Shown here: piece by piece, positions 16,318 through 36,554 of the stretch
How the letters are laid out: every line of letters begins with the position of its first letter
Position numbering within the stretch: the first letter of the stretch is position 1
Assembly (NCBI GenBank): GCA_963703955.1
Contig: CAVPGK010000014.1
Coordinates: forward strand, 47,048 to 111,047
Direction of reading: 5' to 3'
DNA length: 64,000 nucleotides
From: Nitrospirota bacterium
GTDB lineage: Bacteria; Nitrospirota; Nitrospiria; Nitrospirales; Nitrospiraceae
Notes under the pieces: generated by a model
Told to the model about the DNA's origin: nothing
Seen by the model: only the letters and a program-made list of their open reading frames with translations
Database searches by the model: none
Program-made: the position numbers and the translations under genes

Positions 16318-16481
16318 AGTATCTGGAGCTCAATGCAGGAGTCTCGTGTTCCGTACCATCTACGGTCGTGGCCACCGATCGGTCGCGGTAAGAGGCCCTG
16401 TGCGCGTCAGCCTGGCCCATGCGTGACCGTGCCCAGGTGGATTCTCGTGCATTCCTTGGTCTCAGGGGCCTGATTGAAGGA

Positions 16482-17198: not shown

Positions 17199-17527
17199 GA
17201 CCGGCGCTGGAACCAGCTCAGGCGAGTGACGATCCGCATGAATACAGCCAAGGGATTCTAACAGGGTGACTTCCGTGACGCTGACCTCTTCTCCACGTGT
17301 AGGATTGTGCGACCTGCACGGGTAGAATGAATCGAAACAGCCTTACGGGGTGGGATGATCGGCTCAGTGCACCCTTCACAATTTACACAAGCATGTTGAC
17401 ATCGCCGGATGTTGTGGGCCTATTGCTTCTATAGGCAGATACCCCTATGATGGCTATGCCCGCGGAACACCAGTATTGACGGGTTCCCGTTTGCAGGTGC
17501 ATTCTGGGTGGCACGGAAACGATCGCC

Positions 17528-19810: not shown

Positions 19811-20015
19811 GGGCAGTCCTGTTGTGACCACGGAAAGACTCGGTGCCTGCAGGTATTGACGAGAAGAGTTTGTAACCGTTCAGGGGAGCGATCGAAGGTA
19901 TCAGGCAACCCGGCAATCCATGATAGATGGGCGGGCATGGCTTTCTTCTGGTTGAGTGTGGGAGGTGGACAGGGAGAGCAACCACAGTCACGGTCCTGCT
20001 ACACGGAGAACGATC

Positions 20016-20648
20016 ATGATTAAAGTTCTGATTGCCGATGACCATGCCGTTGTCCTGGAGGGACTGAAGCAAATTCTTTCGGAAACGCCTGATATCGTTG
20101 TCTCGGCCCAGGCACGTGATGGACAAGAAGTGCTGGAGAAGATTCGGTCGAACAATGTCGATGTCGTCGTGCTCGATATTGCGATGCCGGGACGAAGCGG
20201 ATTGGATACTCTCATGCATATCAAACGGGAACGGCCCAACCTGCCCGTTCTTGTGCTCAGCATCCATCCCGAGGATCAGTACGCGGTTCGTGTGCTGAAG
20301 GCAGGTGCCTATGGATATCTAACCAAGGACAGCGCGCCGGACCAATTGATCAGCGCCATTCGAAAGGTGGTGATGGGTCGGAAGTATGTCAGCCCCTCTC
20401 TGGCTGAAAAATTAGCTTTCGATCTAGAGTCAGACACAGGGAAGCCTCCACATGAAATTCTCTCTGATCGCGAATATGAAGTGCTCTGTATGATTGCGGT
20501 GGGAAAAACCGTCAAGGAGATCGCGGATAAGCTTTCCCTAAGCGTCAAAACAATCAGCACATATCGCGCCCGCATTCTTGAAAAAATGAAAATGAAGAAT
20601 AATGCGGAGCTCACCCACTACGTCATTCGGGAAGGCTTGCTTGACTAA
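20016..20648 (+). CDS. NarL/UvrY-family response regulator (REC-LuxR HTH)
   Basis: IKVLIADDH, VLDIAMPG, GYLTK, LSDREYEV..GKTVKEIA..LSLSVKTISTYR. Confidence 0.95.
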   Translation: MIKVLIADDHAVVLEGLKQILSETPDIVVSAQARDGQEVLEKIRSNNVDVVVLDIAMPGRSGLDTLMHIKRERPNLPVLVLSIHPEDQYAVRVLKAGAYGYLTKDSAPDQLISAIRKVVMGRKYVSPSLAEKLAFDLESDTGKPPHEILSDREYEVLCMIAVGKTVKEIADKLSLSVKTISTYRARILEKMKMKNNAELTHYVIREGLLD

Positions 20649-21114: not shown

Positions 21115-22248
21115 TTAGTCCTCAGAAATGAGCGCGGGCCTGGATGAAGCCGCGAGAGTTGGAAGGGAAGCGGTGGATTCACGTGCGATACGGACGAAGG
21201 TGTCGGCAAGTTTAGGATCGAATTCAGTACCGGCCAGTCGCCTTATTTGTTCGATGGCATCATGCACGCTCAGCGCTGAGGCCTGTGCAGGTTGTTCGGC
21301 GGTCAGATGGTCGAACACTTGGGCAATGGAGACGATTCGGGCGAGCAGCGGAATCCCGTCCCCCTGGAGCCCATAGGGATAGCCCATACCATCATACCGC
21401 TCGTGGTGGTAGAGGATGATCTGCCCCACCTCCGCCGGAACCCTAAGGGGGAGACTCAATCGAGATCCCATCTCCGGATGACGCTTGAAGAGTTCGGACT
21501 CTCGTTCGTCCAAAACCCGCCTCTTGTCCAGGAGGCGGTCATCAAGCCCTATCTGTCCGACGTCATGAAGGAAGGACCCGATGGCGAGGGTTTTCCGCGC
21601 TTCTTCACTTAGGCCAAGATGTTTCCCAAGGAGTCCGGCATAGAAAGTCGTGCGGCTCGAATGATTGAAAAGATCGCGATTCTTAGCTTCCAACAAGTCT
21701 AAAAGAAGCGAAGTGGCTTCCCCGCTGTCGGACGCGCGGGATTCAGGCTTATGCTTTGAACGAGTCTGTTGGCAGAGATCACGAAGCTGATTCCATGCGG
21801 CAGACGATTCATGCTCTGTTCCCCAGAGTCCTTCCGAGTGCTTGAGGAAAAGCCGGAGCCCGGCGAGACGTTTCTTCTTGCCGAGCGTCTGATCGATAAC
21901 GGCCAACAATTCTGTCACGTTGAAGGGCTTGAGCAGGTACGCTGCCGCTCCGTAGCGGATGGCATCCATCGCGGATTTCAGGCTGCCGTACCCGGTGATG
22001 ATAACCACCTCAACATCACCACGCACCTCTTTGATTTGCTGCAAAAGGTCCATGCCATTGCGATCGGGCAGCTTCATGTCAAGGGTCACGAGGTCAATCG
22101 TATTTTCTTTGAGGGTACGGATCGCCGCATGACCGTTGTCAACCGCGTGGAGATTATAGAACGGTCGCAGGATGACCTTGAGGGCATTCCGGGGCCCTAA
22201 CTCGTCTTCCACGATCAGTATGGTGGGTTTGTGGTCTTCTTGAAACAT
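21115..22248 (-). CDS. REC-HD-GYP protein with degenerate catalytic motifs
   Basis: ILIVEDE, TLDMKLP, YLLKPF; HSSR, LHDVGQ, HHERYDGMGYP, IAQVFD, FDPKL. Confidence 0.88.
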   Translation of the reverse strand: MFQEDHKPTILIVEDELGPRNALKVILRPFYNLHAVDNGHAAIRTLKENTIDLVTLDMKLPDRNGMDLLQQIKEVRGDVEVVIITGYGSLKSAMDAIRYGAAAYLLKPFNVTELLAVIDQTLGKKKRLAGLRLFLKHSEGLWGTEHESSAAWNQLRDLCQQTRSKHKPESRASDSGEATSLLLDLLEAKNRDLFNHSSRTTFYAGLLGKHLGLSEEARKTLAIGSFLHDVGQIGLDDRLLDKRRVLDERESELFKRHPEMGSRLSLPLRVPAEVGQIILYHHERYDGMGYPYGLQGDGIPLLARIVSIAQVFDHLTAEQPAQASALSVHDAIEQIRRLAGTEFDPKLADTFVRIARESTASLPTLAASSRPALISED

Positions 22249-22331
22249 CGGCGCCAAGAGTCTATTCGCCCTTATACGTCCGAAGACACATTTTGTCAAG
22301 CAAAACCAGTGTCTTATATCTTCGGCCTGGG

Positions 22332-23747
22332 TCAGGAAGGAGCAAAGGCTTCCCTATGTTCGGCTGATCCGTTCGAATCATCTCGGCGGATCCCGAGCAT
22401 ATCCATGCGGTATTTGAGCATCCGGCGGCTGATGCCCAGTAGCGCTGAGGCATGAGTCTGGACATAATCCGTTTTCTGAAGGGCATCGAGGATGATCTTT
22501 CGCTCGAATTCCATGACGGCCCTTTCCAATGAGATCCGTCCGGAAAGAGTTTCATTACGTAAGGAGTCGGAATGGGTGTCGGTTCTGAGACCACCCGGGA
22601 GGTGTTCCGGAAGGATGGTGTGGCCGTCCGACCAGACAATGGCCTGTTCAACCACGTTTTCCAGTTCACGGACATTGCCGGGCCAGTTGTACTTGCTGAG
22701 GATCTCCAAGGTCTCCTTCGAAAATTCCTGGTGCGGGTGGTGCTCCTCTTCCAGTCGTTTGGCCAGGAAATGTTTCGCAAGCAATGGAATATCCTCGCGC
22801 CGATCGCGGAGAGCCGGCAGATATAGCGACACTACGTTAATTCGATAATAGAGATCCTCTCGAAACTCTTTCCGTCGAAGGAGTTCCTCCAAATTCTTGT
22901 TGGTGGCCGCCATAATCCTCACGTCAACTTTGATCGGATGCGTTCCTCCAATGCGGGTGAATTCTCGTTCTTGGATGACCCGAAGCAACTTGGCTTGTGT
23001 CGCCAGGCTGAGGTCTCCAATTTCGTCGAGAAACACACTTCCGCCATGGGCAAGCTCAAACTGACCCAGGCGGCGTGACTGAGCGTCTGTGAAGGACCCT
23101 TTCTCGTGTCCGAACAGTTCGCTTTCGATCAATGTTTCGGGTAATGCGGCGCAATTCAATGCAATAAACGGACGATCCCGACGTAAACTGTTGTAGTGAA
23201 GCGCGCGAGCGACCAACTCTTTCCCCGTGCCGCTCTCGCCGGTGATCAGGACCGTGGTCCGCGTGTCGGCGACCTGCACGATCTTGGCGTAAATGTCGCG
23301 CATGGCTGGACTTTTGCCCACGAGACTGTCAAATCCGTATTTATGTGCGACCTGGGCTCGAAGATATCGAACTTCCCGCTCTAACGCCTGTTTCTCGATT
23401 GCGTTTTCCATCGTGAGGCGAAGTTCTTCGATCTCAAACGGCTTGGTGAGATAGTCGGCGGCCCCCATCTTCATGGCGTCGACCACGGTTTTCACCATTT
23501 TTGTCCCTGTGAGCATGATGATCGGAATCCGAGGATCTTCCGAATGCATGGTCTTAAGCACCGAGAGACCGTCTTCGCCAGGCAGCATGACGTCCAATAA
23601 AACGAGATCAGGCGAATCACGCTTGTAGAGGTTCACGCCTTCTTCCCCCTCGGAGGCGCAGATGAGCTCATAGGTCGGTTCAAGGACCATCTTCAATGAC
23701 ATGTGGATGCTGGATTCGTCATCGACCAATAGAACCCGCTTTTTCAT
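22332..23747 (-). CDS. Sigma54-dependent NtrC-family response regulator (REC-AAA+-Fis HTH)
   Basis: GESGTGKE, ESELFGHEKGSFTDA, FLDEIG, FREDLYYR, WPGNVRELEN, C-terminal HTH. Confidence 0.96.
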   Translation of the reverse strand: MKKRVLLVDDESSIHMSLKMVLEPTYELICASEGEEGVNLYKRDSPDLVLLDVMLPGEDGLSVLKTMHSEDPRIPIIMLTGTKMVKTVVDAMKMGAADYLTKPFEIEELRLTMENAIEKQALEREVRYLRAQVAHKYGFDSLVGKSPAMRDIYAKIVQVADTRTTVLITGESGTGKELVARALHYNSLRRDRPFIALNCAALPETLIESELFGHEKGSFTDAQSRRLGQFELAHGGSVFLDEIGDLSLATQAKLLRVIQEREFTRIGGTHPIKVDVRIMAATNKNLEELLRRKEFREDLYYRINVVSLYLPALRDRREDIPLLAKHFLAKRLEEEHHPHQEFSKETLEILSKYNWPGNVRELENVVEQAIVWSDGHTILPEHLPGGLRTDTHSDSLRNETLSGRISLERAVMEFERKIILDALQKTDYVQTHASALLGISRRMLKYRMDMLGIRRDDSNGSAEHREAFAPS

Positions 23748-26652
23748 GTTCGCTTTGTTCCTTTTTTGATGACACGTGTGCTAATGGGTTGGCTCTTAGA
23801 TTGACATAGAATGTCGTTCCACTTCCCAGGGTACTCTCAACCTCAATGAAACCATGGTGCTCCTGGATGATTTGATGGACGATGTTGAGGCCCAGTCCGG
23901 TTCCTTCACGTTCTCCACTCTCATGCTTGGTGGTATAGAAAGGGTCGAAAATGTGCTCCAAGTTGGCAGGTGCGATCCCGCTCCCCGTATCGGACACCTC
24001 GATCTGAACCCACAGATCGCCGGAGAGTTTTGTCACGCGATGCGTTCTCACGGTCAATTGGCCACCATCCTTATCCATCGCCTCCATCGCATTCTGAAAC
24101 AGATTGTGCAAGACTTGTATGATTTGTTGCCGGTCGAGGAGGATACGGGGCAAATCATCAGTCAGGTCTCGCTCGATTGTAATGGACTTGTTGGCAGCCT
24201 TGACCTCTATATAATAGAGACAGGAGGCCACGACGTCGTTGAGGTCCTCCTCATTCAACTTGGGTTCCATGTATCGGGCGTAATCCAGGATTTCGTGGAT
24301 CAGACGCTCGATCCGGCGGACATCTTCGATAACCACTTTGCTGAATTGATCGATAAACTCTGCATCATGTCTTCGGCTTGGCGCCAACTGGATAAAGGTC
24401 TTAATGGATGTGAGGGGGTTTCGAATCTCATGTGCAAATCCACCTGCCATCGTTTCGAGAGAACGGAGGCGATCGGTGCGCCGCATGAGGAGTTGGGAGC
24501 GTTTGAGGTCCGTGTAGAGGATGGCATTGTCCAGAGCGACGGCGGCGTTCTGAGCTAGGGAAGTCAGCAGATTCAGATCGTCTTCGGTGTACTGGTAATG
24601 GTCATTCCGATGTCCCAAGTTAATAAAACCGATGACGCGATCCTTGTTGATCAAGGGAAGGCAAACCTCGGATGACATCTGCTGTAGGGTCTGCATGACG
24701 GATCGAGGAACGTCCGGGCTCCGCGCGTGCTCCAATTCTTCGCGGACGAGAATCGATTGACAATATCTTAAGTGATAGGGCAAGCCGTCCTCTGCCGGTA
24801 GGCGGATGGTCTTGAGCTTCTCCGAATCTCTTGAATTTGCCAGCGCCAATGTGTAGAGGGCCTTTTCGTTATCCAGCAAAAACAACGAGATGTGTTTGAT
24901 GCCCAATGATTTTTCGAGGGTGGCCAAAATGGTCTGAGTAAGTGTCGGCAGGTCCAAGATCGACACCATGGCCTTGCTGAATTCTCTCAAGGTGTCATAG
25001 GCCTCCTGTCTGCCCTTAAACAGGGTCTTGCCCACGATGCCTTCCACGTGTTTCTGCAGAGTGGCAAGAATTCCGGCGAAAATCATGTTGGTGGCCAGCA
25101 GGATTCCCGCCAACTGATAGTGCATGGAGCCGGTAAAGAGTCTAACCAAGAAGAGGATCACCACGTATGAAAGGGTTCCGATTGAAAACGCTTCGATATA
25201 TGGGAGAACTTTGGATTTCGTCAGGACGAGGGAAATGTCCAGGAGTTGGTACCTGGCAATCGCATAGGAAACGATCAGAGTCCACGCGCTGACACAAAGG
25301 TAGCCCAGGGGATAGAACTCGACGCCGTAGTTCTGCACGAAATCGAGAGAGGCAAGATAGCCGATGACAAACGCCCAGAAGACATACTTAACCCGTGTGG
25401 CTTCAAGGGCATGTGCGGCAGCTTTATAGCCTGTGTGAAGCTTGAAAATCGACAAGACGCTGACCCAGCCGAAATACACCAAGAAAACCGGGTGAAGGAG
25501 ACCAGCTCTTGGATAGAACCCCCAAAAATAGGAGTAGTAGCCATCGATCAAATAGGTGGTGGGAACGAGAAACAGGAAGATCGTGCTGATCAGGTAATTT
25601 GGCACAATCCACCTACAGCGGGGATGCGTTTGCAGAAGACTCACGCAGAAGTGGTAGAAAAAGGCCGGAATATAGACCACACCGGCGTAGACCACTTTGG
25701 CCCAGAACTGGACCTCTTCCGCACTCGATGCCGAATAAATCATGAAGAATCCGAACAGCCAGGTACTTAAACCGATGCAAATCAGACTGAAGGTGATATT
25801 CTTCACGGTCCGATGGCTTTTCATGAAAATCCATAAGCCACAGGCGACAACCAAACTGCCCGCGAGCAGCGGCGGGAGCGAATAGAGTGTGGCGCGTTCG
25901 CTGATGAGCACACCTAGGTAGATTGGCAACGTGATCGCCGCCAACAAGAGTCCGTAGGTAAGACCTTTGTGCATTACGATGGTGATGTCCATTAGTCGAT
26001 GGCGGACGATCGCGTAAGAAATGATTCCGGCGAACAAGACCAGAAGGAAATCGTGCGGAAATGGCTCTACTTGGACATAGGCTCCGACGAAATGCATGAG
26101 CCCGGCGGTGTAGGCAAGCGCAAACGAAGCAAGGACGTACCCGAGCTGATTTCTTCTTAATCCCGTTGACTGAACATAGCTTCTAAAGGTCTTGTAGAAC
26201 GCGAAACCGCAACCCAATCCAAAAAATGCCGTGAAAGGTATAAAGAGCCCACCGGGAATGACCGCGTACAAGAAATCGTGGCGGACGACCCCTTGTATAA
26301 AGCTGTGACTGAATGCGAAGGCCGAGAAAACAAATGAGCAAACAAGTAAGCCTGTCAAGAAGTGTCGTTCGAAAGGATCGTGTTCCAAATGCAAGAGGAC
26401 GACGACAAAATAATAAAATGCAGTTGGCACAAACGGAGCGAATACGTACACTATTCGACCCACGATAGCAGCCGTTTCATCACTCGCGGGAAGGGAGATA
26501 AGAAAAGGGAAAACGGTCCACGTGCCTGCAAGGAAGGCGATGAGCGCAAAGGATCGGTTAAGAAGTTTCTCGGTATCCTTTAAGTAAACTAAAAGCCCTA
26601 CGCTCAGGCAGCTAGCTGATGCTGTCAGGGAGGCGAGCGGATAGAGATTCAC
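23719..26652 (-). CDS. Sensor histidine kinase with two tandem HisKA_7TM-like domains, GAF, HisKA and HATPase
   Basis: Two hydrophobic repeats ending YAIVRHRLMDI and YAIARYQLLDI; GAF (LPLINKDRVIGFINLG); FAHEIRNPL, NLFQNA, DTGSGI, FDPFYTTK, GTGLGL; GTG start overlaps the ALDH stop (GTGA). Confidence 0.92.
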   Translation of the reverse strand: MNLYPLASLTASASCLSVGLLVYLKDTEKLLNRSFALIAFLAGTWTVFPFLISLPASDETAAIVGRIVYVFAPFVPTAFYYFVVVLLHLEHDPFERHFLTGLLVCSFVFSAFAFSHSFIQGVVRHDFLYAVIPGGLFIPFTAFFGLGCGFAFYKTFRSYVQSTGLRRNQLGYVLASFALAYTAGLMHFVGAYVQVEPFPHDFLLVLFAGIISYAIVRHRLMDITIVMHKGLTYGLLLAAITLPIYLGVLISERATLYSLPPLLAGSLVVACGLWIFMKSHRTVKNITFSLICIGLSTWLFGFFMIYSASSAEEVQFWAKVVYAGVVYIPAFFYHFCVSLLQTHPRCRWIVPNYLISTIFLFLVPTTYLIDGYYSYFWGFYPRAGLLHPVFLVYFGWVSVLSIFKLHTGYKAAAHALEATRVKYVFWAFVIGYLASLDFVQNYGVEFYPLGYLCVSAWTLIVSYAIARYQLLDISLVLTKSKVLPYIEAFSIGTLSYVVILFLVRLFTGSMHYQLAGILLATNMIFAGILATLQKHVEGIVGKTLFKGRQEAYDTLREFSKAMVSILDLPTLTQTILATLEKSLGIKHISLFLLDNEKALYTLALANSRDSEKLKTIRLPAEDGLPYHLRYCQSILVREELEHARSPDVPRSVMQTLQQMSSEVCLPLINKDRVIGFINLGHRNDHYQYTEDDLNLLTSLAQNAAVALDNAILYTDLKRSQLLMRRTDRLRSLETMAGGFAHEIRNPLTSIKTFIQLAPSRRHDAEFIDQFSKVVIEDVRRIERLIHEILDYARYMEPKLNEEDLNDVVASCLYYIEVKAANKSITIERDLTDDLPRILLDRQQIIQVLHNLFQNAMEAMDKDGGQLTVRTHRVTKLSGDLWVQIEVSDTGSGIAPANLEHIFDPFYTTKHESGEREGTGLGLNIVHQIIQEHHGFIEVESTLGSGTTFYVNLRANPLAHVSSKKEQSEHEKAGSIGR

Positions 26653-28901
26653 TTGCTGGTTTTCCGCATCCTGGTTATGGTAATGCCTTGTAGGTGGGAG
26701 GTTTTCTGCCACACGTAGTTCAACTCGCCATATGGTCCTCCTGTTCTGCGGGTCCCTCCATGCGTCGCCAAAAAAGGTGAGAAGCCTGCATGTCGACAAT
26801 TGATTCGCAAGAGCCCACTGTTGTGGATCTGCTCGGAAAATTTATTGACGTAAAAGGGCGATGAAGCCCAAGCGGACACTCGGAGGCCATACTCATTGTT
26901 GTTTGCTACGTGGACCATTTTCTTGAAGATAACCATGTCCTTCGTGCCCTTATCAGCGCCCCTCGCATCTGCAGAGACTCTTATGAGTGGGATCAGGGGA
27001 AAAAAGTTTTCCTCGTTCATACACCTCATTTGAGACGCCTTCGAAAGATCCTTTACCCTGATCACCGTCGGAGTAATGAATTGACCATGATTGTCAGGAA
27101 TCGCCTTATAATTCACTCTGTATCCACCACAGAGCAACTCGGCTCCTTTGGCTAACGCTTCCTCTAGGAACTCGAAGAACTCAGGAATCTTTATGACCGG
27201 TGAGAAAGTAACGTGTGGATCGGTTGGCAACCCGATTCGCAGCTTTTTGACAGCTGAAAGAAATAGCTCCTGAAAAGACTCAAAAATATCCTCGTGGATA
27301 AAGGCTTTTTTCGGTACCATGCAAACCTGTGTGGAACCCATAAACCCGTCCAATAATGATTGGACCGCCATCTCCAAGGGAGCATCCTTCCAAACGAACA
27401 TCATGTCGTTTCCAGAAAGTTCGAGAATAGGTTTTTTCCCATTCTCATAGGCTCGAGCCCCAATCTTGAGTCCAGTCTTGCTGTCTCCAATGAAAATTAG
27501 GTCGTTAACAAGTTGACTGTTGAGCCATTCATCAACAATCAACTCGGAGTTTCCAACTACAAGATTCACTGTTCCATCGGGTGCATGATTGTGTTTCAAT
27601 GACTCGTGAACGACGTTCTTCCAGAGGAAGAGGGTGGAAATAGGGGATTGAAGCGGAGGCTTCACAACGAGAGTATTCCCGGAAAGAAGAGCGAAACCGG
27701 CGATTAATGAGGCGCTGCACGGCGCGTTCCTAGGAGGGCTGACGCACACAACTCCATCGGGCTTTCTCTTCCAATACAGATTCTCTTCGTCGACCACGGC
27801 TATCTTCCTTGTGAGGTGTTGAACATAAAAGTCGAGTGAAGGCTTGCGGTAAGCCTGTTCCATTCCAAGGAATTCCCATTCGGCCAACTGTCGTGGGTGA
27901 CCTTCAACAACCATGAGTTCGATCAGCTGGTCTTTATTTATCAGCAGAAGGTCATGTATGTCTGTGGCGATCCTTAGGCGTTTGGAAAGAGAGAAATAGC
28001 GAAATTCCTGGCTGGCCGCGTAGGCGGCCTCGAGAGCCGCTCGATTGGTATCTTTCTTGCCGAAACAATAACGCGCGTATATGTAATCCTTATAGTTTGG
28101 TGGAACCTGTCCTCGCTTGACCTGCTTCATCACCTGCGAGACTGCTTCCTGGTCCGTAAGAAGTTTAGCTGCGGGGACCACATACTTGTAATGGCCTGTG
28201 TCGATATCGTTACCGTTGATCAGCAAGGCGAAGGTCGGAATATCCAGATTGAGGGCGAGGGGTGCTTCCTTGTCGACAGGATGAGATATTTGGACGAACG
28301 GCAGGGGCGGTTGAGTCTGTGGTTGCCGTGCAGATATCAGCGCGTCATACGTCAAAGGAGGAAGGATCTGTGGGACGTTGGCCATGTCGGCATGAGCCTT
28401 GTCGTTAGCAGGAGGGCGGTACAACCTTGCAGCTTCTTCAGCAAGACTGTCTCGAGAGAGGAAAATGGTCAGGAGAGATTTGTCACGCGTCGGGCCTATT
28501 CGGCCTAGTTCGTCCAAAAGTGAAAGAAGAATGATCTGCTCCCATTCTCGAATATCTGAAAACTTAATCCCGATGATATCGAGTGCGCCATGTTGCGCGT
28601 AACGGCAGTAGACAATCTGTCCGCAAACGTTCAAATAACAGATATTGCCGCCGAATGAAAACTTGAGGGCGAGAGGGGTGCCCATAGCCAAGGGGACGCC
28701 GCTGACTACTCTCAAACCTCCTGGGCTGATATCTTCCGTCTGACAAGAAATTGAAGTGTCCTTGATATGGATGCAGGTGGGGATGTGAAGTGACTTCCGT
28801 ATATGTCGACGGACATACGGTCGTTGTGTCTCAGACTCCAGACTTTCCCATGCCGACAGCATGGTTCTCTTAGGGAGGTGTTCTTTAGTACCTTGTGGCA
28901 T
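26649..28901 (-). CDS. PilZ-aldehyde dehydrogenase fusion
   Basis: N-terminal RRHIR and DISPGG PilZ motifs; ALDH motifs PRNAP, GNTLVVKPP, FIGDSKTG, LELSGND, QVC, EENFFP, NEYGL. Confidence 0.88.
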   Translation of the reverse strand: MPQGTKEHLPKRTMLSAWESLESETQRPYVRRHIRKSLHIPTCIHIKDTSISCQTEDISPGGLRVVSGVPLAMGTPLALKFSFGGNICYLNVCGQIVYCRYAQHGALDIIGIKFSDIREWEQIILLSLLDELGRIGPTRDKSLLTIFLSRDSLAEEAARLYRPPANDKAHADMANVPQILPPLTYDALISARQPQTQPPLPFVQISHPVDKEAPLALNLDIPTFALLINGNDIDTGHYKYVVPAAKLLTDQEAVSQVMKQVKRGQVPPNYKDYIYARYCFGKKDTNRAALEAAYAASQEFRYFSLSKRLRIATDIHDLLLINKDQLIELMVVEGHPRQLAEWEFLGMEQAYRKPSLDFYVQHLTRKIAVVDEENLYWKRKPDGVVCVSPPRNAPCSASLIAGFALLSGNTLVVKPPLQSPISTLFLWKNVVHESLKHNHAPDGTVNLVVGNSELIVDEWLNSQLVNDLIFIGDSKTGLKIGARAYENGKKPILELSGNDMMFVWKDAPLEMAVQSLLDGFMGSTQVCMVPKKAFIHEDIFESFQELFLSAVKKLRIGLPTDPHVTFSPVIKIPEFFEFLEEALAKGAELLCGGYRVNYKAIPDNHGQFITPTVIRVKDLSKASQMRCMNEENFFPLIPLIRVSADARGADKGTKDMVIFKKMVHVANNNEYGLRVSAWASSPFYVNKFSEQIHNSGLLRINCRHAGFSPFLATHGGTRRTGGPYGELNYVWQKTSHLQGITITRMRKTSK

Positions 28902-29263: not shown

Positions 29264-32200
29264 TCAGGTCATCTTTTGTCCCCCCTTTTCTGCAACAGCG
29301 ATGTAGGCCTGGTTCGCGAATGTCGAATAGATACGGGGCTGCAGGGCCCCGGACGAGATCAACAGCGTCGCCAACTCTTGCCGATCGAAGAATCGAAAAA
29401 CGCCTTCCTGCTCCCGCTGCGCAATCTTCCCTGATGTGTTCAATACCTGTTTCGCTTTTTCAATTTCCTCGGCTGGTTTACCGAGTCCAAGAAAATTCCG
29501 ATAAATAGGAGAGAGATCCGCCTGAGGCTTGAAGATCGTCATGACCAGTCTTCCTCCCGGGGATAGCACTCGCATTAGTTCACGAAGAGTAAAGAGGGGG
29601 TCGCGAAGGTATCCGATGACCAAGTTACACAAGATTCGATTGAACTGGTTATCATGAAAGGGCAATGTCTGGTCAAGGTCTGCTTGCGCGAGCGCCGACG
29701 CCAGAATCGGAAGGGGCCTTTCGGTTGAAGGGAACCGCTCATGAATGTCGGCAGCGACCCTTGACAAGTTAAGCTGCGCCTGCGAGAGCCCGCTCATAAC
29801 GAAATCGACTCCCAAGTACCGCATTCGTTGGGTAACCGGAGAGTTTCGTAAGCGATATGATTCGTTAATAAACAAGAACATCCCAAAATTGCCGTTTCCG
29901 CAGCCGGCGTCCAAAACGCAGTCGTTCTCGCCAAGATTACCCATGAGACGGTAGATGTGGTCGAGGAGATGCCAATAGTCAGAAAAGTTCACAATGAACT
30001 GAGACTGGTCGAGATAGTCTCGCCAGAATTCAAACGCCTCAGATTTGGCCATGTGGTGTTGCGTGCGAGCACGCTCTCGTTCAAGCCGAACCTGGCGATC
30101 GAGTTCGTGATCCGACGGGAGAGCAAGTTGGAACGCATCGGAGAGCGGATAGAACCAAGCTCGGCAACACTGCACCATCCGTTGAAAGACGTCCCGCGCA
30201 CGCTCCGGGCGTTTGTGGATGTCATGAACCGCATCGGCCATGAGATACCAGTCAATGGCATATTCCCGCAGGGAGGTTTTCACCTTCTTTAACGCGCCTT
30301 GATCAACCCACGAATCGTGTTCCGATGAAAAGAAAACGACCGGGGTTTTCACTTGCTCGGCATCCTTCAGCGTCGTCTCCAGATCGGAATACTCTTGTCG
30401 GGTCGCATCTGCCAGCCATCGATCTGCATCAACCGAAAACCCCAGCAGATTGCTGACCCCCCGTCTCATGCCGTGAAGGTGGCCGCCAACCAAATCTTCC
30501 CCGTGTACGGTCCGTAACGTCGACTGCACGTCAACCACTCCGCCCAAGAGAAGAAGGAACTTGACAGTACGGCTCTGCAAGATAGTCTTCAACGCGACCC
30601 GGCCGGTCACTCCCGAGGCTACCACAAGGACCGGACTGGCGGGCCAGAGACGATCAGCGTAGCTCAGAATCGCGCGGAGATCTTCGTTCATCGTCGTGAG
30701 CGTGGTATGGACGATGTCGCCCTGACTGTCGCCGATATGAAATGTGTGGTCATATCGAATCACCCGAAAGCCGTTGCCGGCGAAATGATAGGCCAACGAG
30801 ACATAGTCTCTCTTGGTTTCTCCGAATCCAGGGGCAAGAATGACGAGCGGAGAGCCAGGCGGGAGTGCCTCACGGGGATGATCATGGTACAGCACGAGGC
30901 GACGTCCTCTTTCATTGAGGCATTCCAGCAACTCACTAACCAAGGTCGTTTGTTCATGAGGGTCCTGGATACGGTCGGGCGAGGTAAGGTAGTGAGTGAT
31001 GAGTTCCGCAATCCTGCGCTCGGAGGCGCCGTCAAAACGTATGAACCGAAGCCCGATGAGGAGGGGAGTTGCTGATGAGGGCTCTGAAGGAGTTGTCGAA
31101 ACAGCGGAGGCCGAAGAAACCCACACCACGTCGCCCATGACGCAATCTTCCTTCCCTGGCGCGTTCTCCGTGGAACGATCCGATACCGTTCGAGAAGTGT
31201 CCAGACACAGACGAATGCGATGACCCACTACGTCGGGTGAGGCGTGTAGTCGCACCCGGGCCCCAGTGGTCGTCAAATCGACCAGGTGAGCCTCCACACG
31301 GTCAAATCTCGGGGCAGTTCCGATTGATCCCACTTGAACAGGGACATCGAGATGTACGCGAGCTGATACGCGCCGATCCCCGGGACCCCCTTCATTCTTC
31401 TTGGCAAAGCCTGCCGGGATATCAACGAGCTCAACACGCTCATGATCGGTCAGTATGCCGGACTGGTGCTGTCCTGCGTCGCGCGGTAGGAGCACGGCGG
31501 TCAGCTTGACCGTGACTGTTCGACTGCGGAGGCCTTCGAACAGCGATTTCAGTATTCGGCTTTCCGAATCCTGGAGGACTGAGAATTCAACGGCGAGTCC
31601 GGTCAATGAGAGCTTGTCGTGGTGATCCTGAGTGACAGCGGGCTCACGGAGTTCACAGACCCTCCCCGAAATCTCCAAGATCCCCACGTCGCTGATGAAT
31701 CCTAATCGGATCGACTGGAACACATGTGCGGACACCGGCCCTTTGAATACTGTGTATACGCCGCCCAGGCTGACGTTCAGGGTCGTGCCGGTCCACGCGG
31801 TCCCATTGAGTCGCAGATAGGTCTCCATCTGAACTTCAGTTCGCGGAGAGCGGCGTCGTTCGGGGAAAAGGCACTCGTCGGTTGTCTTGGACGGAACGAG
31901 GCGGATGGGTGAGTCTTCGACTTTCGTCGACATCGGGGGAGTGTGAGGAACTGCGGACCCCGACGATCCATAACCGAACTCTTTCTGAACATCCTGCAAG
32001 GTGTGAAGCAGTTGCTCCGCGTTCGCGAGGATCGTGGCGAGGGGGGGTGCCAAGTCCGCGAGCCGGCGCGCCAGGCGTTCCTTATCTTGCGATTCAACGA
32101 CTGGCCTCAGTACGCCAGTCGTTCCGAGATACTGGCGATACCGATCGTACAGAGCCGTGGCATTGACCTCGACGACGATGGGTTTCTGCGCTTCTCCTTT

Positions 32201-32860
32201 GACCTTGAGTTGAAGCTGGAGCTTCCTCGTCGCGCGGGGCAATGAACGTCGTTCGTTGAAGTGCCGATTCGCCTTCACCAATTCATCGGAGCCGAGGATC
32301 GAGGAATACGGGAGTCCGATCAATTCGTGAGGCTCATAATTGAGCAATGCCTTCACGGCCGGGCTGAGATACACAAATCGCCCCTCGGCATCGAGTTCAT
32401 AAATCGTTTCAGTCAGGTTCTCGATCAGGTTTTGGTACCGATCCTGCGAGAGATCGAGCCGTGAACGCAGATCCCGCTTTTCGAGCGCCTCTCGGGTGAC
32501 AATCGGCAGGTCCATGAGCGCTGCGGGTGAATACTTGAAAAAATAATAATCTGCTCCGCCGCGCATCACGCGAAGCGCGACGCGCGGGTCTTGCTGAACG
32601 CCTTCGACGATGATGGCGGATTGTGGAGCTCGACGCCTGATTTCCTGGAGAAGATCGAGATCGCCCGCATGGGGAAGTTGCTCGTCGAGAAGGATCATGT
32701 GCCAGTCGAGTTTGGATGCCCACTCCAAGGCCTCGTTCGCGGAATAGACGGCCTCCACTCGACATCCGGGGTAAAAGGATCTCAGACTCACGGTCATGAG
32801 TTTGATTTCCTCCGCTTGCTCATTGACGAGCAAGACTGTCATGGCTTCAGATTTAGGCAT
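29264..32860 (-). CDS. REC-PAS-PilZ-PilZ-LuxD-like acyltransferase/thioesterase-class I SAM methyltransferase multidomain protein
   Basis: REC (ILLDEQLP); PAS (IYELDAEGRFVYLSPA); PilZ RRSPR/NVSLGG and RVSAR/DLTTTG; LuxD-like APGFGET..NGFRVIRYD..HIGDSQG, GVVDV, HDSWV, VHDI; methyltransferase VLDAGCGNG, RVLSPGG. Confidence 0.85.
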   Translation of the reverse strand: MPKSEAMTVLLVNEQAEEIKLMTVSLRSFYPGCRVEAVYSANEALEWASKLDWHMILLDEQLPHAGDLDLLQEIRRRAPQSAIIVEGVQQDPRVALRVMRGGADYYFFKYSPAALMDLPIVTREALEKRDLRSRLDLSQDRYQNLIENLTETIYELDAEGRFVYLSPAVKALLNYEPHELIGLPYSSILGSDELVKANRHFNERRSLPRATRKLQLQLKVKGEAQKPIVVEVNATALYDRYRQYLGTTGVLRPVVESQDKERLARRLADLAPPLATILANAEQLLHTLQDVQKEFGYGSSGSAVPHTPPMSTKVEDSPIRLVPSKTTDECLFPERRRSPRTEVQMETYLRLNGTAWTGTTLNVSLGGVYTVFKGPVSAHVFQSIRLGFISDVGILEISGRVCELREPAVTQDHHDKLSLTGLAVEFSVLQDSESRILKSLFEGLRSRTVTVKLTAVLLPRDAGQHQSGILTDHERVELVDIPAGFAKKNEGGPGDRRVSARVHLDVPVQVGSIGTAPRFDRVEAHLVDLTTTGARVRLHASPDVVGHRIRLCLDTSRTVSDRSTENAPGKEDCVMGDVVWVSSASAVSTTPSEPSSATPLLIGLRFIRFDGASERRIAELITHYLTSPDRIQDPHEQTTLVSELLECLNERGRRLVLYHDHPREALPPGSPLVILAPGFGETKRDYVSLAYHFAGNGFRVIRYDHTFHIGDSQGDIVHTTLTTMNEDLRAILSYADRLWPASPVLVVASGVTGRVALKTILQSRTVKFLLLLGGVVDVQSTLRTVHGEDLVGGHLHGMRRGVSNLLGFSVDADRWLADATRQEYSDLETTLKDAEQVKTPVVFFSSEHDSWVDQGALKKVKTSLREYAIDWYLMADAVHDIHKRPERARDVFQRMVQCCRAWFYPLSDAFQLALPSDHELDRQVRLERERARTQHHMAKSEAFEFWRDYLDQSQFIVNFSDYWHLLDHIYRLMGNLGENDCVLDAGCGNGNFGMFLFINESYRLRNSPVTQRMRYLGVDFVMSGLSQAQLNLSRVAADIHERFPSTERPLPILASALAQADLDQTLPFHDNQFNRILCNLVIGYLRDPLFTLRELMRVLSPGGRLVMTIFKPQADLSPIYRNFLGLGKPAEEIEKAKQVLNTSGKIAQREQEGVFRFFDRQELATLLISSGALQPRIYSTFANQAYIAVAEKGGQKMT

Positions 32861-33354: not shown

Positions 33355-34359
33355 TTACCGGGCCTCGACTCTCTCGTCGGCGCCGCAGATCCCCGGTGTC
33401 ATGTACAGAAGGTAGTTCCCCATGCCGTGCTGAACGCGGGGATCGTGCAAAGGATGGTGATAGACCATCACCATCTCATACTCATCCTTCGTTGTCACTG
33501 AAAACCCTTGAGCATCTCTATATACCTGGTGAGGCTGAAACGCAATGAATGTCCCGTCTTGGGCCACGTCCGGAACCGTGCGAAGAAGGGTTCGACCGGC
33601 CGTCCTGTTTTCGAGCGCAATCAGAAGTAATTCGTCGTGTCCGTGGGGATACGCGAATTTGACACATCCGTCCATCCGAAACTTCAGCGTGGACGATAGG
33701 GTGTGAACCCCCGGCTTGATTTCGATTCCCTCATCGGTCTGGTCTTTCCCGCGTTGTCCAAACTTGCTGTAGCAGACGATGTTCACGCCGACTTGATAGA
33801 CGTCCATTTCTTTGATGGGAGTACCGTCAGGAGCCATCTCCATCGTGAAGGTTGCCATCACATCCTTCATCGGCGGGGCCTTATGATAGAAGGCGACCAC
33901 GGACATCAGCTTCTTGCCCTTTTCCAATTTCACCCCATAGCCGGACGGAAAACGGGCCTCGGTCATCTCCAAGCCGGCGCCTGAGAAGAATAGCGGCTCG
34001 CCGGGACACGAGACGCTTTCTTTATCGTTGTTCATCATGAGAATGTGATGCAGATACTGCTGTGGCAGGGGCCTGCCTTCTTTCGTAAAGACAGCCGATT
34101 TGAAGCCGACCAAATACATATCCTTCGGGAGTTCGAAAATATGCTTCGGCATGCTGGCCGCCAATTCACCGTCGTGTGCGGCCGGAAGGTCGATCGGTCC
34201 GAATGTCAGGGTGACCGTAGTGCCTTCAACCGTGACAGTGGTGGTGGTCTGTCCGTCCAATGTCGGAACGCCATGCGAATGGCTCTCACTTCCCAGTGCC
34301 GGGCCGGCCATGGCTGAGAACATCAGCATCAGCAATCCTACCGAGACCAATCGCTTCAT
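33355..34359 (-). CDS. Secreted copper type II monooxygenase (PHM/DBH)-like protein
   Basis: Signal peptide; YLHHIL, FAYPHGH and HGMGNYLLY in the order of PHM HH, HxH and M copper ligands; AGGAGG RBS. Confidence 0.65.
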   Translation of the reverse strand: MKRLVSVGLLMLMFSAMAGPALGSESHSHGVPTLDGQTTTTVTVEGTTVTLTFGPIDLPAAHDGELAASMPKHIFELPKDMYLVGFKSAVFTKEGRPLPQQYLHHILMMNNDKESVSCPGEPLFFSGAGLEMTEARFPSGYGVKLEKGKKLMSVVAFYHKAPPMKDVMATFTMEMAPDGTPIKEMDVYQVGVNIVCYSKFGQRGKDQTDEGIEIKPGVHTLSSTLKFRMDGCVKFAYPHGHDELLLIALENRTAGRTLLRTVPDVAQDGTFIAFQPHQVYRDAQGFSVTTKDEYEMVMVYHHPLHDPRVQHGMGNYLLYMTPGICGADERVEAR

Positions 34360-34391
34360 CGTTCCTCCTGGTGTACTTGAGTGGCCACAAG

Positions 34392-35279
34392 CTACGGAGT
34401 CGACGCAGAGTTTGAATCTGGAGAAGGAGTCAGTCGTTTCAACAGATACTTACCCCCCCATTGCCTGGCAGGAATGTCTTTCCGATCACCGACGCGTGTA
34501 TACCACCAGACGCCTCTTGCTTGCGTTCCATCCTCAGACAGGAGCACTTCAAACGCCCCCTCTCGGTCGTTTCCGGACTGGTGCCATGTCCCTTGCCACT
34601 TTTGGTCGGCAACCCCAGTGGTGGTGATCTTGCCATTTTGCCACGTATAAGTGCCGTTCCCGTCACGGTCAAGGGTGGCTTTATAAGACTTATCTTCTTC
34701 TTGGATATCCCATTCCCCGCTGAGATCGGGCCTTTGAGACAGCTGAGCGGCGCTGATCGGACCCGCGGCACCTTGAACGGACCCGGAACTGACCGCAGTG
34801 CTTCCGGTTCTTGCGGATTCGTGCCAGGCGACCAAGATCCATGTTCCATTCCGGCGCTCCAGAACACCGGTCTCACGAAGCGGAATGACGGTTCCGGCGG
34901 TTTTCTCGCCGGCTACATGGCGGATATAGTCCAGTTCCATTGCAAACCAGGCGGTGTCACCGCGAGTCCACACGGCGAGGTCGGTGATGGGAATTTCCAA
35001 GCGCTCGACCGAGTCGAACTCCAGTCGCATGTCGCGCGCAAAATCGGCCCACCCGACATACTTTCGGCCTCCGATCGTATAACTGATCATATCCGGATCG
35101 CGTGACATGAATCGTTCCATACCGGCCAGATCTTTGGCTGCATTGGCCTGCACGAGAGCCCGCAATACGTCTTCCGGAGTCGAAGGATCCTCTGATTTGG
35201 CGAAGGCTTGAAATACAAGAAGGAATATCACGGACCCGGCGAACAGGAGTCGACCCAACTGCATGCAGCGTTTACTCAA
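34392..35279 (-). CDS. Exported SnoaL/NTF2-like domain protein with a C-terminal beta-rich domain
   Basis: Signal peptide; GDTAW, RETGVLERRNGTWILVAWHES NTF2-type end; second domain DLSGEW..WQGTW..GVWWY. Confidence 0.75.
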   Translation of the reverse strand: MSKRCMQLGRLLFAGSVIFLLVFQAFAKSEDPSTPEDVLRALVQANAAKDLAGMERFMSRDPDMISYTIGGRKYVGWADFARDMRLEFDSVERLEIPITDLAVWTRGDTAWFAMELDYIRHVAGEKTAGTVIPLRETGVLERRNGTWILVAWHESARTGSTAVSSGSVQGAAGPISAAQLSQRPDLSGEWDIQEEDKSYKATLDRDGNGTYTWQNGKITTTGVADQKWQGTWHQSGNDREGAFEVLLSEDGTQARGVWWYTRVGDRKDIPARQWGGKYLLKRLTPSPDSNSASTP

Positions 35280-35358
35280 CAGGAAAGGACCAGATGAAGG
35301 CAGCCTGACAACAAACGGTCGACGACCACCTGAAGGTCGGCAACGTTAGCGGATCAGG

Positions 35359-36135
35359 CTACAGGCGTCCCCCCTCGTTTGTCAATTCATTTCTCACGAT
35401 GACGACCGAAACGTTGTCGTCGCCGCCCCGGCGGTTTGCCTCCTTCACCAGTGCCGAGCAGGCAGTCTCGGGCGAAGACTTAGTTCGAACGAGGGTATCC
35501 CGTATGTGGTCATCACTCATCATTTTTGTCAGTCCATCCGTGCACAAGAGAAGAAGATCCTCCGGTTGGAGCGCGTAGACCGAAATGTCTGGTTCCACTA
35601 CTGTCTCGGTGCCCAGCGCCCGTGTGAGGACATGGCGAAGGGGATGCGCGAGCGCTTCTTCTTCCGAGAGTTGGCCTTCTGACACGGCGTCTTCTACGAA
35701 TGAGTGATCGCGGGTGAGTCGAGTCAACCGGTCCCCTCGCAACAGATAGGCCCGACTATCACCGACATGGGTGATCGTGGCTTCCGATGTTGTTTGGACG
35801 ATGGTGACGATGACGACGGTCGTGCCCATCCCGATGAATTCGGGACGCCTGAGGGCCTCATCGCGGATCGCTTGATTCGATGCTTGGATGGCCTGGCGTA
35901 GCGCGGTCGCGCGTTCGTCTCGTGCGAGGCGGGAGAACATGCCTGAATGGCGATCCTGCGCGAATTCGCGGGCCAGCGTGTCGACGGCCATCCGACTGGC
36001 GACGTCCCCCCCCACGCGCCCTCCCATTCCATCGGCGACGACCCAGACACCGAGATCATTCATGACCGTAAAGGCATCCTGGTTGGACCGCCGAACCCGA
36101 CCCCGGTCGGTGATACCTGTTCCCTGCCAGGGCAT
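35359..36135 (-). CDS. PP2C-family Ser/Thr phosphatase (Stp1/PrpC-like)
   Basis: TDRGRVRRSNQD, VADGMGG, MGTT, HVGDSRAY, TRDHS, LLCTDGL, GGDDNVS. Confidence 0.95.
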   Translation of the reverse strand: MPWQGTGITDRGRVRRSNQDAFTVMNDLGVWVVADGMGGRVGGDVASRMAVDTLAREFAQDRHSGMFSRLARDERATALRQAIQASNQAIRDEALRRPEFIGMGTTVVIVTIVQTTSEATITHVGDSRAYLLRGDRLTRLTRDHSFVEDAVSEGQLSEEEALAHPLRHVLTRALGTETVVEPDISVYALQPEDLLLLCTDGLTKMMSDDHIRDTLVRTKSSPETACSALVKEANRRGGDDNVSVVIVRNELTNEGGRL

Positions 36136-36161
36136 AGCATTCGACCTCTGCGCAAAGATCA

Positions 36162-36554
36162 TTATGCGAAAGGTGGTCGAGGTGTGTGGGGGTGATGGCG
36201 CTCCACCGGTGGACAATGGATCAGGCCAGCGGGTCCCAAATTGCGCGTGTCGGCCTCATTGTACTCAATCGGCCGATCGTGGGTGTCAGTTCGGCCTCGG
36301 CGCCGCTCATGTCGGAGCCTGACCGCATCCCATCCATCCAAGCCGTCGACCGGCGTAGGGACCCGCCACGGCGACGTCTCCCTGTGGAGGCGGCTCGCTA
36401 CAGTTGCAGTCATTGAGGAGTTTTCGTTCGGGGCTGATGCCAGGAAGAGACTCGACGGCGGGAAGACATGCCAATGCGACACGCCCTGCACCCGGAGCTT
36501 TCGCTCTGTCAGTTCGCCGATGCCCTTGAACAAGATAAGGGTCGATTCAATCAT
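36162..36554 (-). pseudogene. Remnant of a YprB/RNase H-like exonuclease gene
   Basis: N-terminal MIESTLILFKGIGELTERKL and C-terminal GWDAVRL..IEYNEADTRNL family-like motifs; central catalytic region absent; LPGISPERK lies in another frame. Confidence 0.65.

What the first reader, a model, noticed from the sequence alone, without database searches (positions are those of the whole stretch)
29264..32860. Six-domain fusion: signalling inputs (REC, PAS, 2x PilZ) wired to a LuxD-like domain and a methyltransferase
Seen: approximate order REC (32845-32480), PAS (32440-32100), PilZ1 (RRSPR..NVSLGG), PilZ2 (RVSAR..DLTTTG), alpha/beta hydrolase (30950-30060), SAM methyltransferase (30050-29264). The hydrolase tracks Vibrio LuxD motif by motif as I recall it: GF..NGF.V.RYD..H.G.S.G, RVA, GVV, TL, D.WV, HD. 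LuxD is known as a stand-alone bioluminescence myristoyl-ACP thioesterase, and no luxA/B/E is present here. Inference: a LuxD fold repurposed as an acyl donor or acyl-binding module feeding an adjacent O-methyltransferase under multi-input allosteric control.
Basis: partly seen in the sequence, partly recalled or inferred. Interest (0 to 1): 0.8.

Follow-up and report, generated by a model that had tools for sequence, protein, structure and literature searches.

The report
Retired signal enzyme with swapped replacement
This large protein of a nitrifying bacterium joins sensing domains to a LuxD-type and a methyltransferase domain but lacks the catalytic serine that most relatives keep, so it is likely a retired signal-making enzyme kept as a regulator, while the neighbouring aldehyde dehydrogenase and its matching membrane sensor domain likely took over the signalling job.

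Summary
The six-domain ORF is real (REC-PAS-PilZ-PilZ-LuxD-like-methyltransferase, 1198 aa), and LuxD is its best sequence and fold match. In 121 homologues, three putative methyltransferase pocket residues are all present in 80 of 82 Ser-bearing proteins and 0 of 39 Ser-less ones, including this one: the two halves seem to work together and retire together. Ser-bearing genes lie directly before a 7TM sensor kinase in 48 of 52 loci, Ser-less ones in 1 of 36. Here a PilZ-aldehyde dehydrogenase sits between fusion and kinase. In relatives that slot holds five unrelated enzyme types, and the kinase's first 7TM domain groups by enzyme type, while the second 7TM domain and kinase core do not. This window's sensor is of the dehydrogenase type. 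Best reading (about 0.5): an undescribed, likely c-di-GMP-gated synthase/receptor signalling locus in which this fusion is a conserved pseudoenzyme and the dehydrogenase cassette is the current synthase. No chemistry is shown. The scan noted the family, the sensor swapping and dead copies before on other DNA; my paper searches found no description.

The parts
29264..32860 (-). Fusion gene, 1198 aa (P0001): REC-PAS-[H-box remnant]-PilZ-PilZ-LuxD-like-SAM methyltransferase
32486..32845 (-). Atypical receiver domain: Asp59 and Lys109 kept (54 and 52 of 55 homologues), first acidic pair reads Asn-Glu, the usual Thr/Ser is Gly87
   Evidence: receiver motif roles from established knowledge
32093..32449 (-). 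PAS domain
31976..32089 (-). Degenerate HisKA H-box helix without His; remnant of a kinase segment that 1400-aa relatives still carry
31523..31861 (-). PilZ 1 with RxxxR (336-340) and NxSxxG (362-367)
30977..31378 (-). PilZ 2 with RxxxR (497-501) and DxTxxG (528-533; Thr for Ser)
30152..30940 (-). LuxD-like alpha/beta-hydrolase domain; Asp849 (30314-30316) and His879 (30224-30226) kept
30611..30613 (-). Gly750 codon (GGA) at the position of LuxD Ser114
   Evidence: Gly also in P0002-P0005 and L072
29285..30046 (-). Class I SAM methyltransferase domain; SAM motif LDAGCGNG (29891-29914) intact; putative pocket changes F953S, N1109I, N1142T
26649..28901 (-). PilZ-aldehyde dehydrogenase cassette gene, 750 aa; PilZ subtype plus helix at 28422-28820; catalytic Asn, Lys, Glu, Cys motifs present
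23719..26652 (-). Sensor kinase, 977 aa: 7TM-7TM-GAF-HisKA-HATPase; its GTG start overlaps the ALDH stop by 4 bases
25981..26616 (-). First HisKA_7TM domain (7TMa), the variable sensor, of the ALDH type
25234..25857 (-). Second HisKA_7TM domain (7TMb), does not track the enzyme type
22332..23747 (-). NtrC/AtoC-type sigma-54 response regulator
21115..22299 (-). REC-HD-GYP protein, predicted c-di-GMP phosphodiesterase

Best explanation
The protein has glycine at the catalytic serine position of its LuxD-like domain and is likely a retired two-step signal synthase that is kept as a non-catalytic regulator, while the PilZ-aldehyde dehydrogenase gene behind it is likely the enzyme now matched to the membrane kinase. 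[quoted passage not shown] State in this window: shown are the loss of the serine, the change of three putative pocket residues, the kept SAM motif, the inserted cassette and the ALDH-type first sensor domain; inferred are that the dehydrogenase makes or converts the new ligand and that the old fusion persists as a c-di-GMP-, SAM- or phosphoryl-reading scaffold in the same circuit.
For: Ser114 of LuxD aligns with Gly750 (Ser114 is the acylated residue, PMC6279958 passages). Of 121 aligned homologues 82 have Ser-Asp-His; 39 have Asp, Gly or Asn. F953, N1109 and N1142 are all present in 80 of 82 Ser-bearing and 0 of 39 Ser-less proteins, while seven SAM-motif residues are kept in 37 of 39. Of 88 non-redundant loci, 48 of 52 Ser-bearing genes but 1 of 36 Ser-less genes lie directly before a 7TM kinase; the Ser-less ones precede a kinase without 7TM (22), a PilZ-enzyme cassette (8), NtrC (2) or another gene (3); the state changes 7 times on the tree. 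One homologue carries enzyme and 7TM kinase in one chain (P0097). The cassette slot holds ALDH, heme-oxygenase-like di-iron enzyme, KAS III, HMG-CoA-reductase-like enzyme or a fresh intact LuxD-methyltransferase, each followed by a 7TM kinase in 18 of 18 loci with enough DNA. Among 17 double-7TM kinases, 7TMa identity is 56% for same-enzyme and 32% for different-enzyme pairs (0 of 5000 label shuffles reach this), against 48/45% for 7TMb (980 of 5000) and 61/59% for the core (182 of 5000); the window's 7TMa joins the ALDH locus L196 at 100/100 and is 24-32% identical to LuxD-type sensors. ALDH and 7TMa have low GC3 (0.54, 0.56; 7TMb 0.66; genome median 0.685). The LuxD-like and methyltransferase domains are the best conserved parts against the Gly-bearing relative L187 (76% and 80%; linkers 33-45%), so the gene is not simply decaying.
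Against: No product, ligand or activity is shown for any family member. Two Ser-Asp-His copies also have a cassette behind them (L050, L070) and one Ser-less copy sits directly before a 7TM kinase (L080). The ALDH locus L176 has a 7TMa unlike the window's (30%), and 1 of 5 kinases paired with an ALDH by equal contig length has a LuxD-type sensor. The three pocket positions were picked because the window deviates there, their place in the pocket is inferred from fold topology, and kin are not independent. An aldehyde dehydrogenase could remove a ligand as well as make one. The strong conservation of both enzyme domains and the intact SAM motif also fit a changed activity. GC3 of the LuxD, methyltransferase and kinase-core parts is also below the genome median (0.61-0.63). 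No binding partner of the retired protein is known.
Confidence: 0.5

Rival explanations
1. Changed enzyme: the hydrolase half is dead, but the methyltransferase is active on a new acceptor, for instance the acid made by the neighbouring dehydrogenase (aldehyde to acid to methyl ester).
For: SAM motif, Asp1019, Asp1061, Asn1079, Tyr1084 and Lys1111 are kept; only 4 of 48 family-conserved columns differ; the domain is 80% identical to L187; L178 has deleted the LuxD domain but kept the methyltransferase in front of a KAS III cassette.
Against: The same pocket positions change in all 39 Ser-less homologues whatever their neighbours; this ALDH family also stands before 7TM kinases without any methyltransferase gene next to it (L176, L197, L199); L185 has cut the old gene down to REC-PAS-PilZ.
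Confidence: 0.17
2. Sensor plus remover: the kinases sense outside or membrane compounds, and the adjacent enzymes (hydrolase-methylase, dehydrogenase, oxidase, reductase) convert or quench those compounds instead of making a signal.
For: The enzyme-sensor matching fits this equally well; ALDHs and esterases often remove compounds (established knowledge).
Against: KAS III and LuxD-type enzymes draw on acyl-ACP or acyl-CoA and are building enzymes (established knowledge; PMC6279958 passages); gating by PilZ and the tight gene coupling resemble synthase-receptor operons such as phcBS (PMC8578825 passages).
Confidence: 0.18
3. One reading: the LuxD fold still donates or presents an acyl chain to an active O-methyltransferase, under REC, PAS and c-di-GMP control.
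For: Fold, Asp849, His879, SAM motif and both RxxxR motifs are kept; a Ser-less pocket could still bind an acyl chain.
Against: No nucleophile; Ser749 is the ordinary preceding residue, Thr/Ser/Ala in intact copies, not a shifted nucleophile; pocket residues lost; the sensor next door is not of the LuxD type.
Confidence: 0.1
4. Functionless remnant on its way to loss.
For: 7 of 49 and 4 of 48 conserved columns are already changed, and Nitrospira copies at the same chromosomal site show 13-23 and 17-37; truncated and deleted forms exist (L178, L185).
Against: Open frame; pN 0.12 and 0.11 against pS about 0.7 to L187; Ser-less full-length copies are kept at this site in about 20 genomes of several genera.
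Confidence: 0.05

Closest known systems
LuxD myristoyl-ACP thioesterase/acyltransferase of Vibrio harveyi (PDB 1THT, Pfam PF02273)
   Same: Best sequence and fold match; Asp and His of the triad align.
   Different: Gly at the Ser114 position; about 20% identity in the structural alignment; far below the NCBIfam LuxD cut-off (81 against 420 bits); fused to five other domains; no luciferase or LuxE found in the genome; the adjacent ALDH is not a LuxC-family match.
Phc quorum sensing of Ralstonia (phcB-phcS-phcR-phcQ; PMC8578825, passages seen)
   Same: A methyltransferase gene coupled to a membrane sensor kinase and response regulators; the intact family members would make an acyl methyl ester by the same logic (inferred).
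   Different: Own LuxD-like domain, PilZ/REC/PAS inputs, HisKA_7TM sensors, sigma-54 and HD-GYP outputs, a slot that takes five unrelated enzymes; homology to PhcB was not tested; this copy looks inactive.
PilZ-fused c-di-GMP-gated enzymes such as cellulose synthase BcsA (bioRxiv 10.1101/814665, passages seen)
   Same: [quoted passage not shown]
   Different: The enzymes here are small-molecule enzymes tied to a receptor; binding and gating are untested.
DSF/Rpf system of Xanthomonas (RpfF thioesterase-dehydratase, RpfC kinase, RpfG HD-GYP; RpfF from the abstract listing of PMC13660987, RpfC and RpfG recalled)
   Same: Acyl-ACP-cleaving synthase, membrane kinase and REC-HD-GYP output in one locus.
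   Different: RpfF has a crotonase fold (recalled), not an alpha/beta-hydrolase fold; no methyltransferase, no PilZ on the synthase.

Membership tests
LuxD acyltransferase/thioesterase | Pfam PF02273 above cut-off and LuxD as best structural match | tested here: met
   83.7 bits against 20.3; 1THT ranks first by phmmer and Foldseek
LuxD acyltransferase/thioesterase | NCBIfam equivalog cut-off | tested here: not met
   NF052253 81.4 against 420 bits
LuxD acyltransferase/thioesterase | Serine nucleophile (Ser114) | tested here: not met
   Gly750
LuxD acyltransferase/thioesterase | Catalytic Asp and His | tested here: met
   Asp849 and His879 align with the LuxD DWV and HD motifs; that these are LuxD's triad residues is recalled
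LuxD acyltransferase/thioesterase | lux operon context (luxC, A, B, E) | tested here: not met
   No PF00296 or PF04443 match; one weak PF05893 match on another contig; genome 82% complete
LuxD acyltransferase/thioesterase | Cleavage of myristoyl-ACP | not testable with these tools
   needs an assay
Phc-type methyl-ester quorum sensing | Methyltransferase gene directly coupled to a membrane sensor kinase | tested here: inconclusive
   Met for 48 of 52 intact loci; in the window an ALDH gene lies between
Phc-type methyl-ester quorum sensing | Homology to PhcB and PhcS | not tested
   No tool returned a PhcB or PhcS sequence; NCBIfam, PDB and plasmid searches gave only generic class I methyltransferases
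Phc-type methyl-ester quorum sensing | Production and sensing of an acyl methyl ester | not testable with these tools
   needs chemistry
c-di-GMP-binding PilZ domain | [quoted passage not shown] | tested here: met
   RRSPR/NVSLGG and RRHIR/DISPGG; motif definition from 10.1101/814665 passages
c-di-GMP-binding PilZ domain | [quoted passage not shown] | tested here: inconclusive
   RVSAR kept, DLTTTG has Thr for Ser
c-di-GMP-binding PilZ domain | Binding of c-di-GMP | not testable with these tools
   genome has 7 GGDEF matches, so the ligand can be made
Canonical receiver domain | Acidic pair, Asp, Thr/Ser and Lys | tested here: inconclusive
   Asp59 and Lys109 kept; Asn13-Glu14 and Gly87 atypical
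LuxC acyl-reductase (for the neighbouring ALDH) | Pfam PF05893 match | tested here: not met
   Only Aldedh and PilZ match the gene; the LuxC model does not hit it

The most novel reading that the evidence does not exclude
Nitrospirota carry an undescribed chemical-dialect locus: a fixed kinase-sigma54-HD-GYP backbone takes plug-in cassettes made of a c-di-GMP-gated enzyme (LuxD-methyltransferase, ALDH, di-iron oxidase, KAS III or HMG-CoA-reductase-like) and its own 7TM sensor domain, each making and sensing a different small lipid-type signal. This window caught a handover: the old synthase lost both active sites but stays as a regulatory hub, and an aldehyde dehydrogenase makes the new signal.
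Probability: 0.4. Interest if true: 0.82.

Novelty: new variant of a known kind. Interest (0 to 1): 0.62.

Why it matters
Nitrospirales are major nitrite and complete ammonia oxidisers (established knowledge), and 89 of 151 genomes of the order carry a PF02273 match. If the locus is a synthase-receptor system, it gives these slow-growing biofilm bacteria an unknown signal family that can be tested in E. coli with genes of cultured strains (an intact copy lies in Nitrospira defluvii, L119), and five enzyme-sensor pairs offer a ready specificity matrix. For the finding itself, it tells experimenters not to use this copy to find the product: the intact relatives and the neighbouring dehydrogenase are the ones to assay. 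It is also a clear natural series from working two-step enzyme to conserved pseudoenzyme.

Tried and rejected
1) Generic lysophospholipase or monoglyceride lipase: rejected; LuxD scores far better by sequence and fold. 2) Bioluminescence or a LuxCDE-like complex with the ALDH: rejected. 3) Ser749 as a shifted nucleophile: rejected, that position is Thr/Ser/Ala in intact copies. 4) Assembly error at codon 750: unlikely, since P0002 (96%), P0003-P0005 and L072 also have Gly; a base-level check on reads is left open. 5) An intact paralogue elsewhere in the genome: not found (one PF02273 match; tblastn; one 7TM kinase), but the assembly is 82% complete. 6) A very recent swap in a near-identical strain: P0056, an intact cassette-type LuxD-methyltransferase, has the same longest-contig length (299749) as P0002, but no kinase from that contig was among the 120 listed hits, so gene order is unconfirmed. 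7) Substrate of the methyltransferase from family or fold: no call possible; hits are generic class I enzymes, all far below cut-off. 8) Promoter, terminator and sigma-54 scans: at chance level. 9) Expression: one RNA run gave short exact contigs in the ALDH, kinase and HD-GYP genes and none listed in the fusion gene; contigs cannot rank expression and may be DNA, so nothing is concluded. 10) AHL synthase search: no match, but the control also found none. 11) Binding between the LuxD-like domain and the ALDH: no prediction was obtained; open. 12) My first labelling of neighbour cluster 41 as ALDH was wrong; it is PilZ plus a heme-oxygenase-like domain. 13) In one search the window's kinase was left unlabelled by a script fault; one search corrects this and only one search is used for statistics. 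14) Papers: Nitrospira+LuxD 0; LuxD-like+methyltransferase 0; HisKA_7TM 2, both on archaeal or eukaryotic kinases; three further searches on Nitrospira with quorum sensing or PilZ terms listed nothing on this locus by title or abstract start. Subscription journals and supplements were not searched.
Full report
Observation. The stretch 29264-32860 (-) is one open frame of 1198 aa, P0001. LuxD 1THT is the best of 14 PDB sequence matches (E 3.4e-21; next 6.4e-06) and the best Foldseek match of a confident model of residues 640-1190 (pLDDT 91.4). NCBIfam places it far below the LuxD cut-off (81 against 420 bits). No luciferase or LuxE is found in the genome (82% complete). Record titles of relatives name Nitrospirota taxa in 78 of the 80 loci kept out of 123; a search of 50%-identity representatives gives 275 proteins at E up to 1e-30, many of them bare LuxD-methyltransferase proteins of about 560 aa; 1 of 10 clusters looked up carried a taxon name, Omnitrophica.

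The nucleophile is missing. In the alignment to 1THT, Ser114 falls on Gly750, while Asp849 and His879 are kept. Ser114 is the acylated residue of LuxD (PMC6279958, passages). Among P0001 and the 120 listed homologues (of 209 found), 82 have Ser-Asp-His and 39 have Asp (23), Gly (12) or Asn (4). Among 139 further distant hits 100 have Ser. The four closest homologues and locus L072 also have Gly, so this is a lineage trait.

The methyltransferase half follows. The SAM motif is intact, but the window differs at positions that are near-invariant in 73 intact copies: F953S (F in 71), N1109I (N in 70), N1142T (N in 70). In the 121-protein set all three are present in 80 of 82 Ser-bearing and 0 of 39 Ser-less proteins, whereas seven SAM-motif residues stay in 37 of 39 Ser-less ones. 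I chose the positions after seeing the window, their place in the acceptor pocket is inferred from class I topology (lid helix, end of strand 5), and relatives are not independent. Still, the pattern suggests that the two domains act in one reaction and are lost together. At columns conserved in 43 non-redundant intact copies the window differs in 7 of 49 (LuxD) and 4 of 48 (methyltransferase); the 1400-aa Nitrospira copies differ in 13-23 and 17-37 (intact copies score low by construction). Yet against L187 both enzyme domains are the best conserved parts (76% and 80%; REC 72, PAS 66, PilZ 64 and 55, linkers 45 and 33; pN 0.12 and 0.11, pS near saturation at about 0.7). This is a maintained pseudoenzyme pattern, not decay.

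Input domains. PilZ 1 has both c-di-GMP motifs; PilZ 2 has RxxxR and a Thr in place of Ser (motifs from 10.1101/814665, passages). The receiver keeps Asp59 and Lys109 but is atypical. Residues about 258-295 align with an AHELSSPL H-box of longer relatives and have lost the His: the protein descends from a form with a kinase segment. The genome has 7 GGDEF matches.

Context. Behind the gene, on the same strand, lie a PilZ-aldehyde dehydrogenase (363 bases on), a 7TM-7TM-GAF kinase whose start overlaps the ALDH stop, a sigma-54 regulator and a REC-HD-GYP protein. I classified 113 loci, dropped 7 with too little downstream DNA and merged those over 90% alike, leaving 88. Ser-bearing genes are followed directly by a 7TM kinase in 48 of 52; Ser-less ones in 1 of 36, the others preceding a kinase without 7TM (22), a PilZ-enzyme gene (8), NtrC (2) or another gene (3). 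The Ser state changes 7 times on a FastTree tree. The sample is biased: favours intact copies and I picked the 40 regions by hand. One homologue has enzyme and 7TM kinase in one chain (P0097).

The cassette. The ALDH begins with a distinct PilZ-plus-helix module (alignment A3), found in 11 of 401 genomes of the phylum (at most 10 candidates a genome were scored). It is fused to ALDH (window, L072, L176, L194, L196), to a heme-oxygenase-like domain (L049, L050, L070, L107, L177, L183), to KAS III (L089, L091, L178, L179, L180), to an HMG-CoA-reductase-like domain (L181, L182, L184) or to a fresh intact LuxD-methyltransferase (L082, P0056). A 7TM kinase follows in 18 of 18 loci with enough DNA; 4 were cut short. 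At the window's own chromosomal site, L178 has deleted the LuxD domain and taken KAS III, and L185 has cut the old gene to REC-PAS-PilZ and taken an intact copy. L196 repeats the window's state on another branch: Gly nucleophile, PilZ-ALDH, double-7TM kinase. The window's ALDH keeps its Asn, Lys, Glu and Cys motifs, belongs to a family with Nitrospirota and Omnitrophota names and is not a LuxC match.

The sensor follows the enzyme. Of 40 double-7TM kinases, 38 had a long enough core and 17 remained after merging. First-domain identity is 56% for 26 same-enzyme pairs and 32% for 110 different-enzyme pairs (0 of 5000 shuffles), second-domain 48 and 45% (980 of 5000), core 61 and 59% (182 of 5000). 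In the 7TMa tree LuxD (99/100), KAS III (99/97), di-iron (94/95), reductase (100/100) and window+L196 (100/100) form groups; L176 (ALDH) is a long-branch exception at 30%. L183 has a core 88% and 7TMb 73% identical to the LuxD-type kinase L042 but a 7TMa of 40%, with the same flanking gene types. Of 120 kinases most like the window's, 96 could be typed: 29 KAS III, 15 LuxD, 12 ALDH, 9 di-iron, 6 reductase, 25 none of these; P0406 has a core 75% like the window's and a KAS III-type sensor. ALDH and 7TMa have GC3 in the lowest 2-3% of 1213 long ORFs, 7TMb does not. The idea of testing this swap came from earlier scan notes read; the test is mine.

Mechanism. Shown: architecture, loss of Ser, pocket changes, conservation, gene order, enzyme-sensor matching. 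Inferred: intact members release an acyl chain and methylate it, by analogy with LuxD and with PhcB-PhcS, where a methyltransferase makes a fatty-acid methyl ester sensed by the next gene's kinase (PMC8578825, passages); c-di-GMP gates the enzymes and the HD-GYP protein closes a loop; in the window the ALDH supplies the ligand of 7TMa and P0001 persists as a binding or relay protein. The methyltransferase's substrate cannot be read from family or fold. I put the whole reading at 0.5; that the hydrolase half is not a serine enzyme is much surer.

Novelty. Six paper searches aimed at this locus found no description; only open-licence papers were searched, and apart from the three papers read in passages I saw listings and abstract starts only. 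It is not a LuxD by membership and was not shown to be a PhcB homologue; it likely works like a synthase-receptor quorum-sensing operon. The scan has noted the family, the swapping and dead Nitrospira copies on other DNA. What this window adds is an intermediate state, the coupled loss of both active sites, and five enzyme types in one slot. Verdict: new variant of a known kind, interest 0.62.

Noticed in passing
window 16419-20648: Three genes (a polysaccharide-export-like protein by my reading of the sequence, a 760-aa sensor-like protein without a kinase end, a NarL-type regulator) lie between the HD-GYP gene and recN; in the 20 syntenic loci HD-GYP directly abuts recN, so this looks like an insertion.
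   Followed up: no
L152:6256-7737 (G000 contig C10): A REC-PAS-coiled-coil-REC protein whose first half is 45% identical to the REC-PAS of P0001; a possible duplicate of the input module.
   Followed up: partly
   Followed up: partly
L183:5704-10274 against L042/L186: At the site between the Pup-ligase genes and an alpha/beta-hydrolase gene, one genome has PilZ-di-iron enzyme where others have an intact LuxD-methyltransferase; kinase core 82-88% alike, first sensor domain 40%.
   Followed up: yes
L178:10197-12413: The fusion has lost the whole LuxD domain but keeps REC-PAS-PilZ-methyltransferase, in front of a PilZ-KAS III cassette.
   Followed up: partly
P0028, P0034, P0038 and 15 more: 18 homologues have Asp at the nucleophile position with Asp and His kept; an Asp-nucleophile chemistry is not excluded for that group.
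   Followed up: no
L181:8382-10214, L182:9378-11090, L184:6125-8425: PilZ fused to an HMG-CoA-reductase-like domain directly before a 7TM kinase.
   Followed up: partly
25 of 96 kinases: First 7TM domains that match none of the five known types at 45% identity: further enzyme cassettes likely exist.
   Followed up: no
window 33355-36216: Three genes upstream of the fusion (a 334-aa protein without Pfam match, a SnoaL-like protein, a PP2C phosphatase) are conserved at this site in 20 of 41 loci.
   Followed up: no
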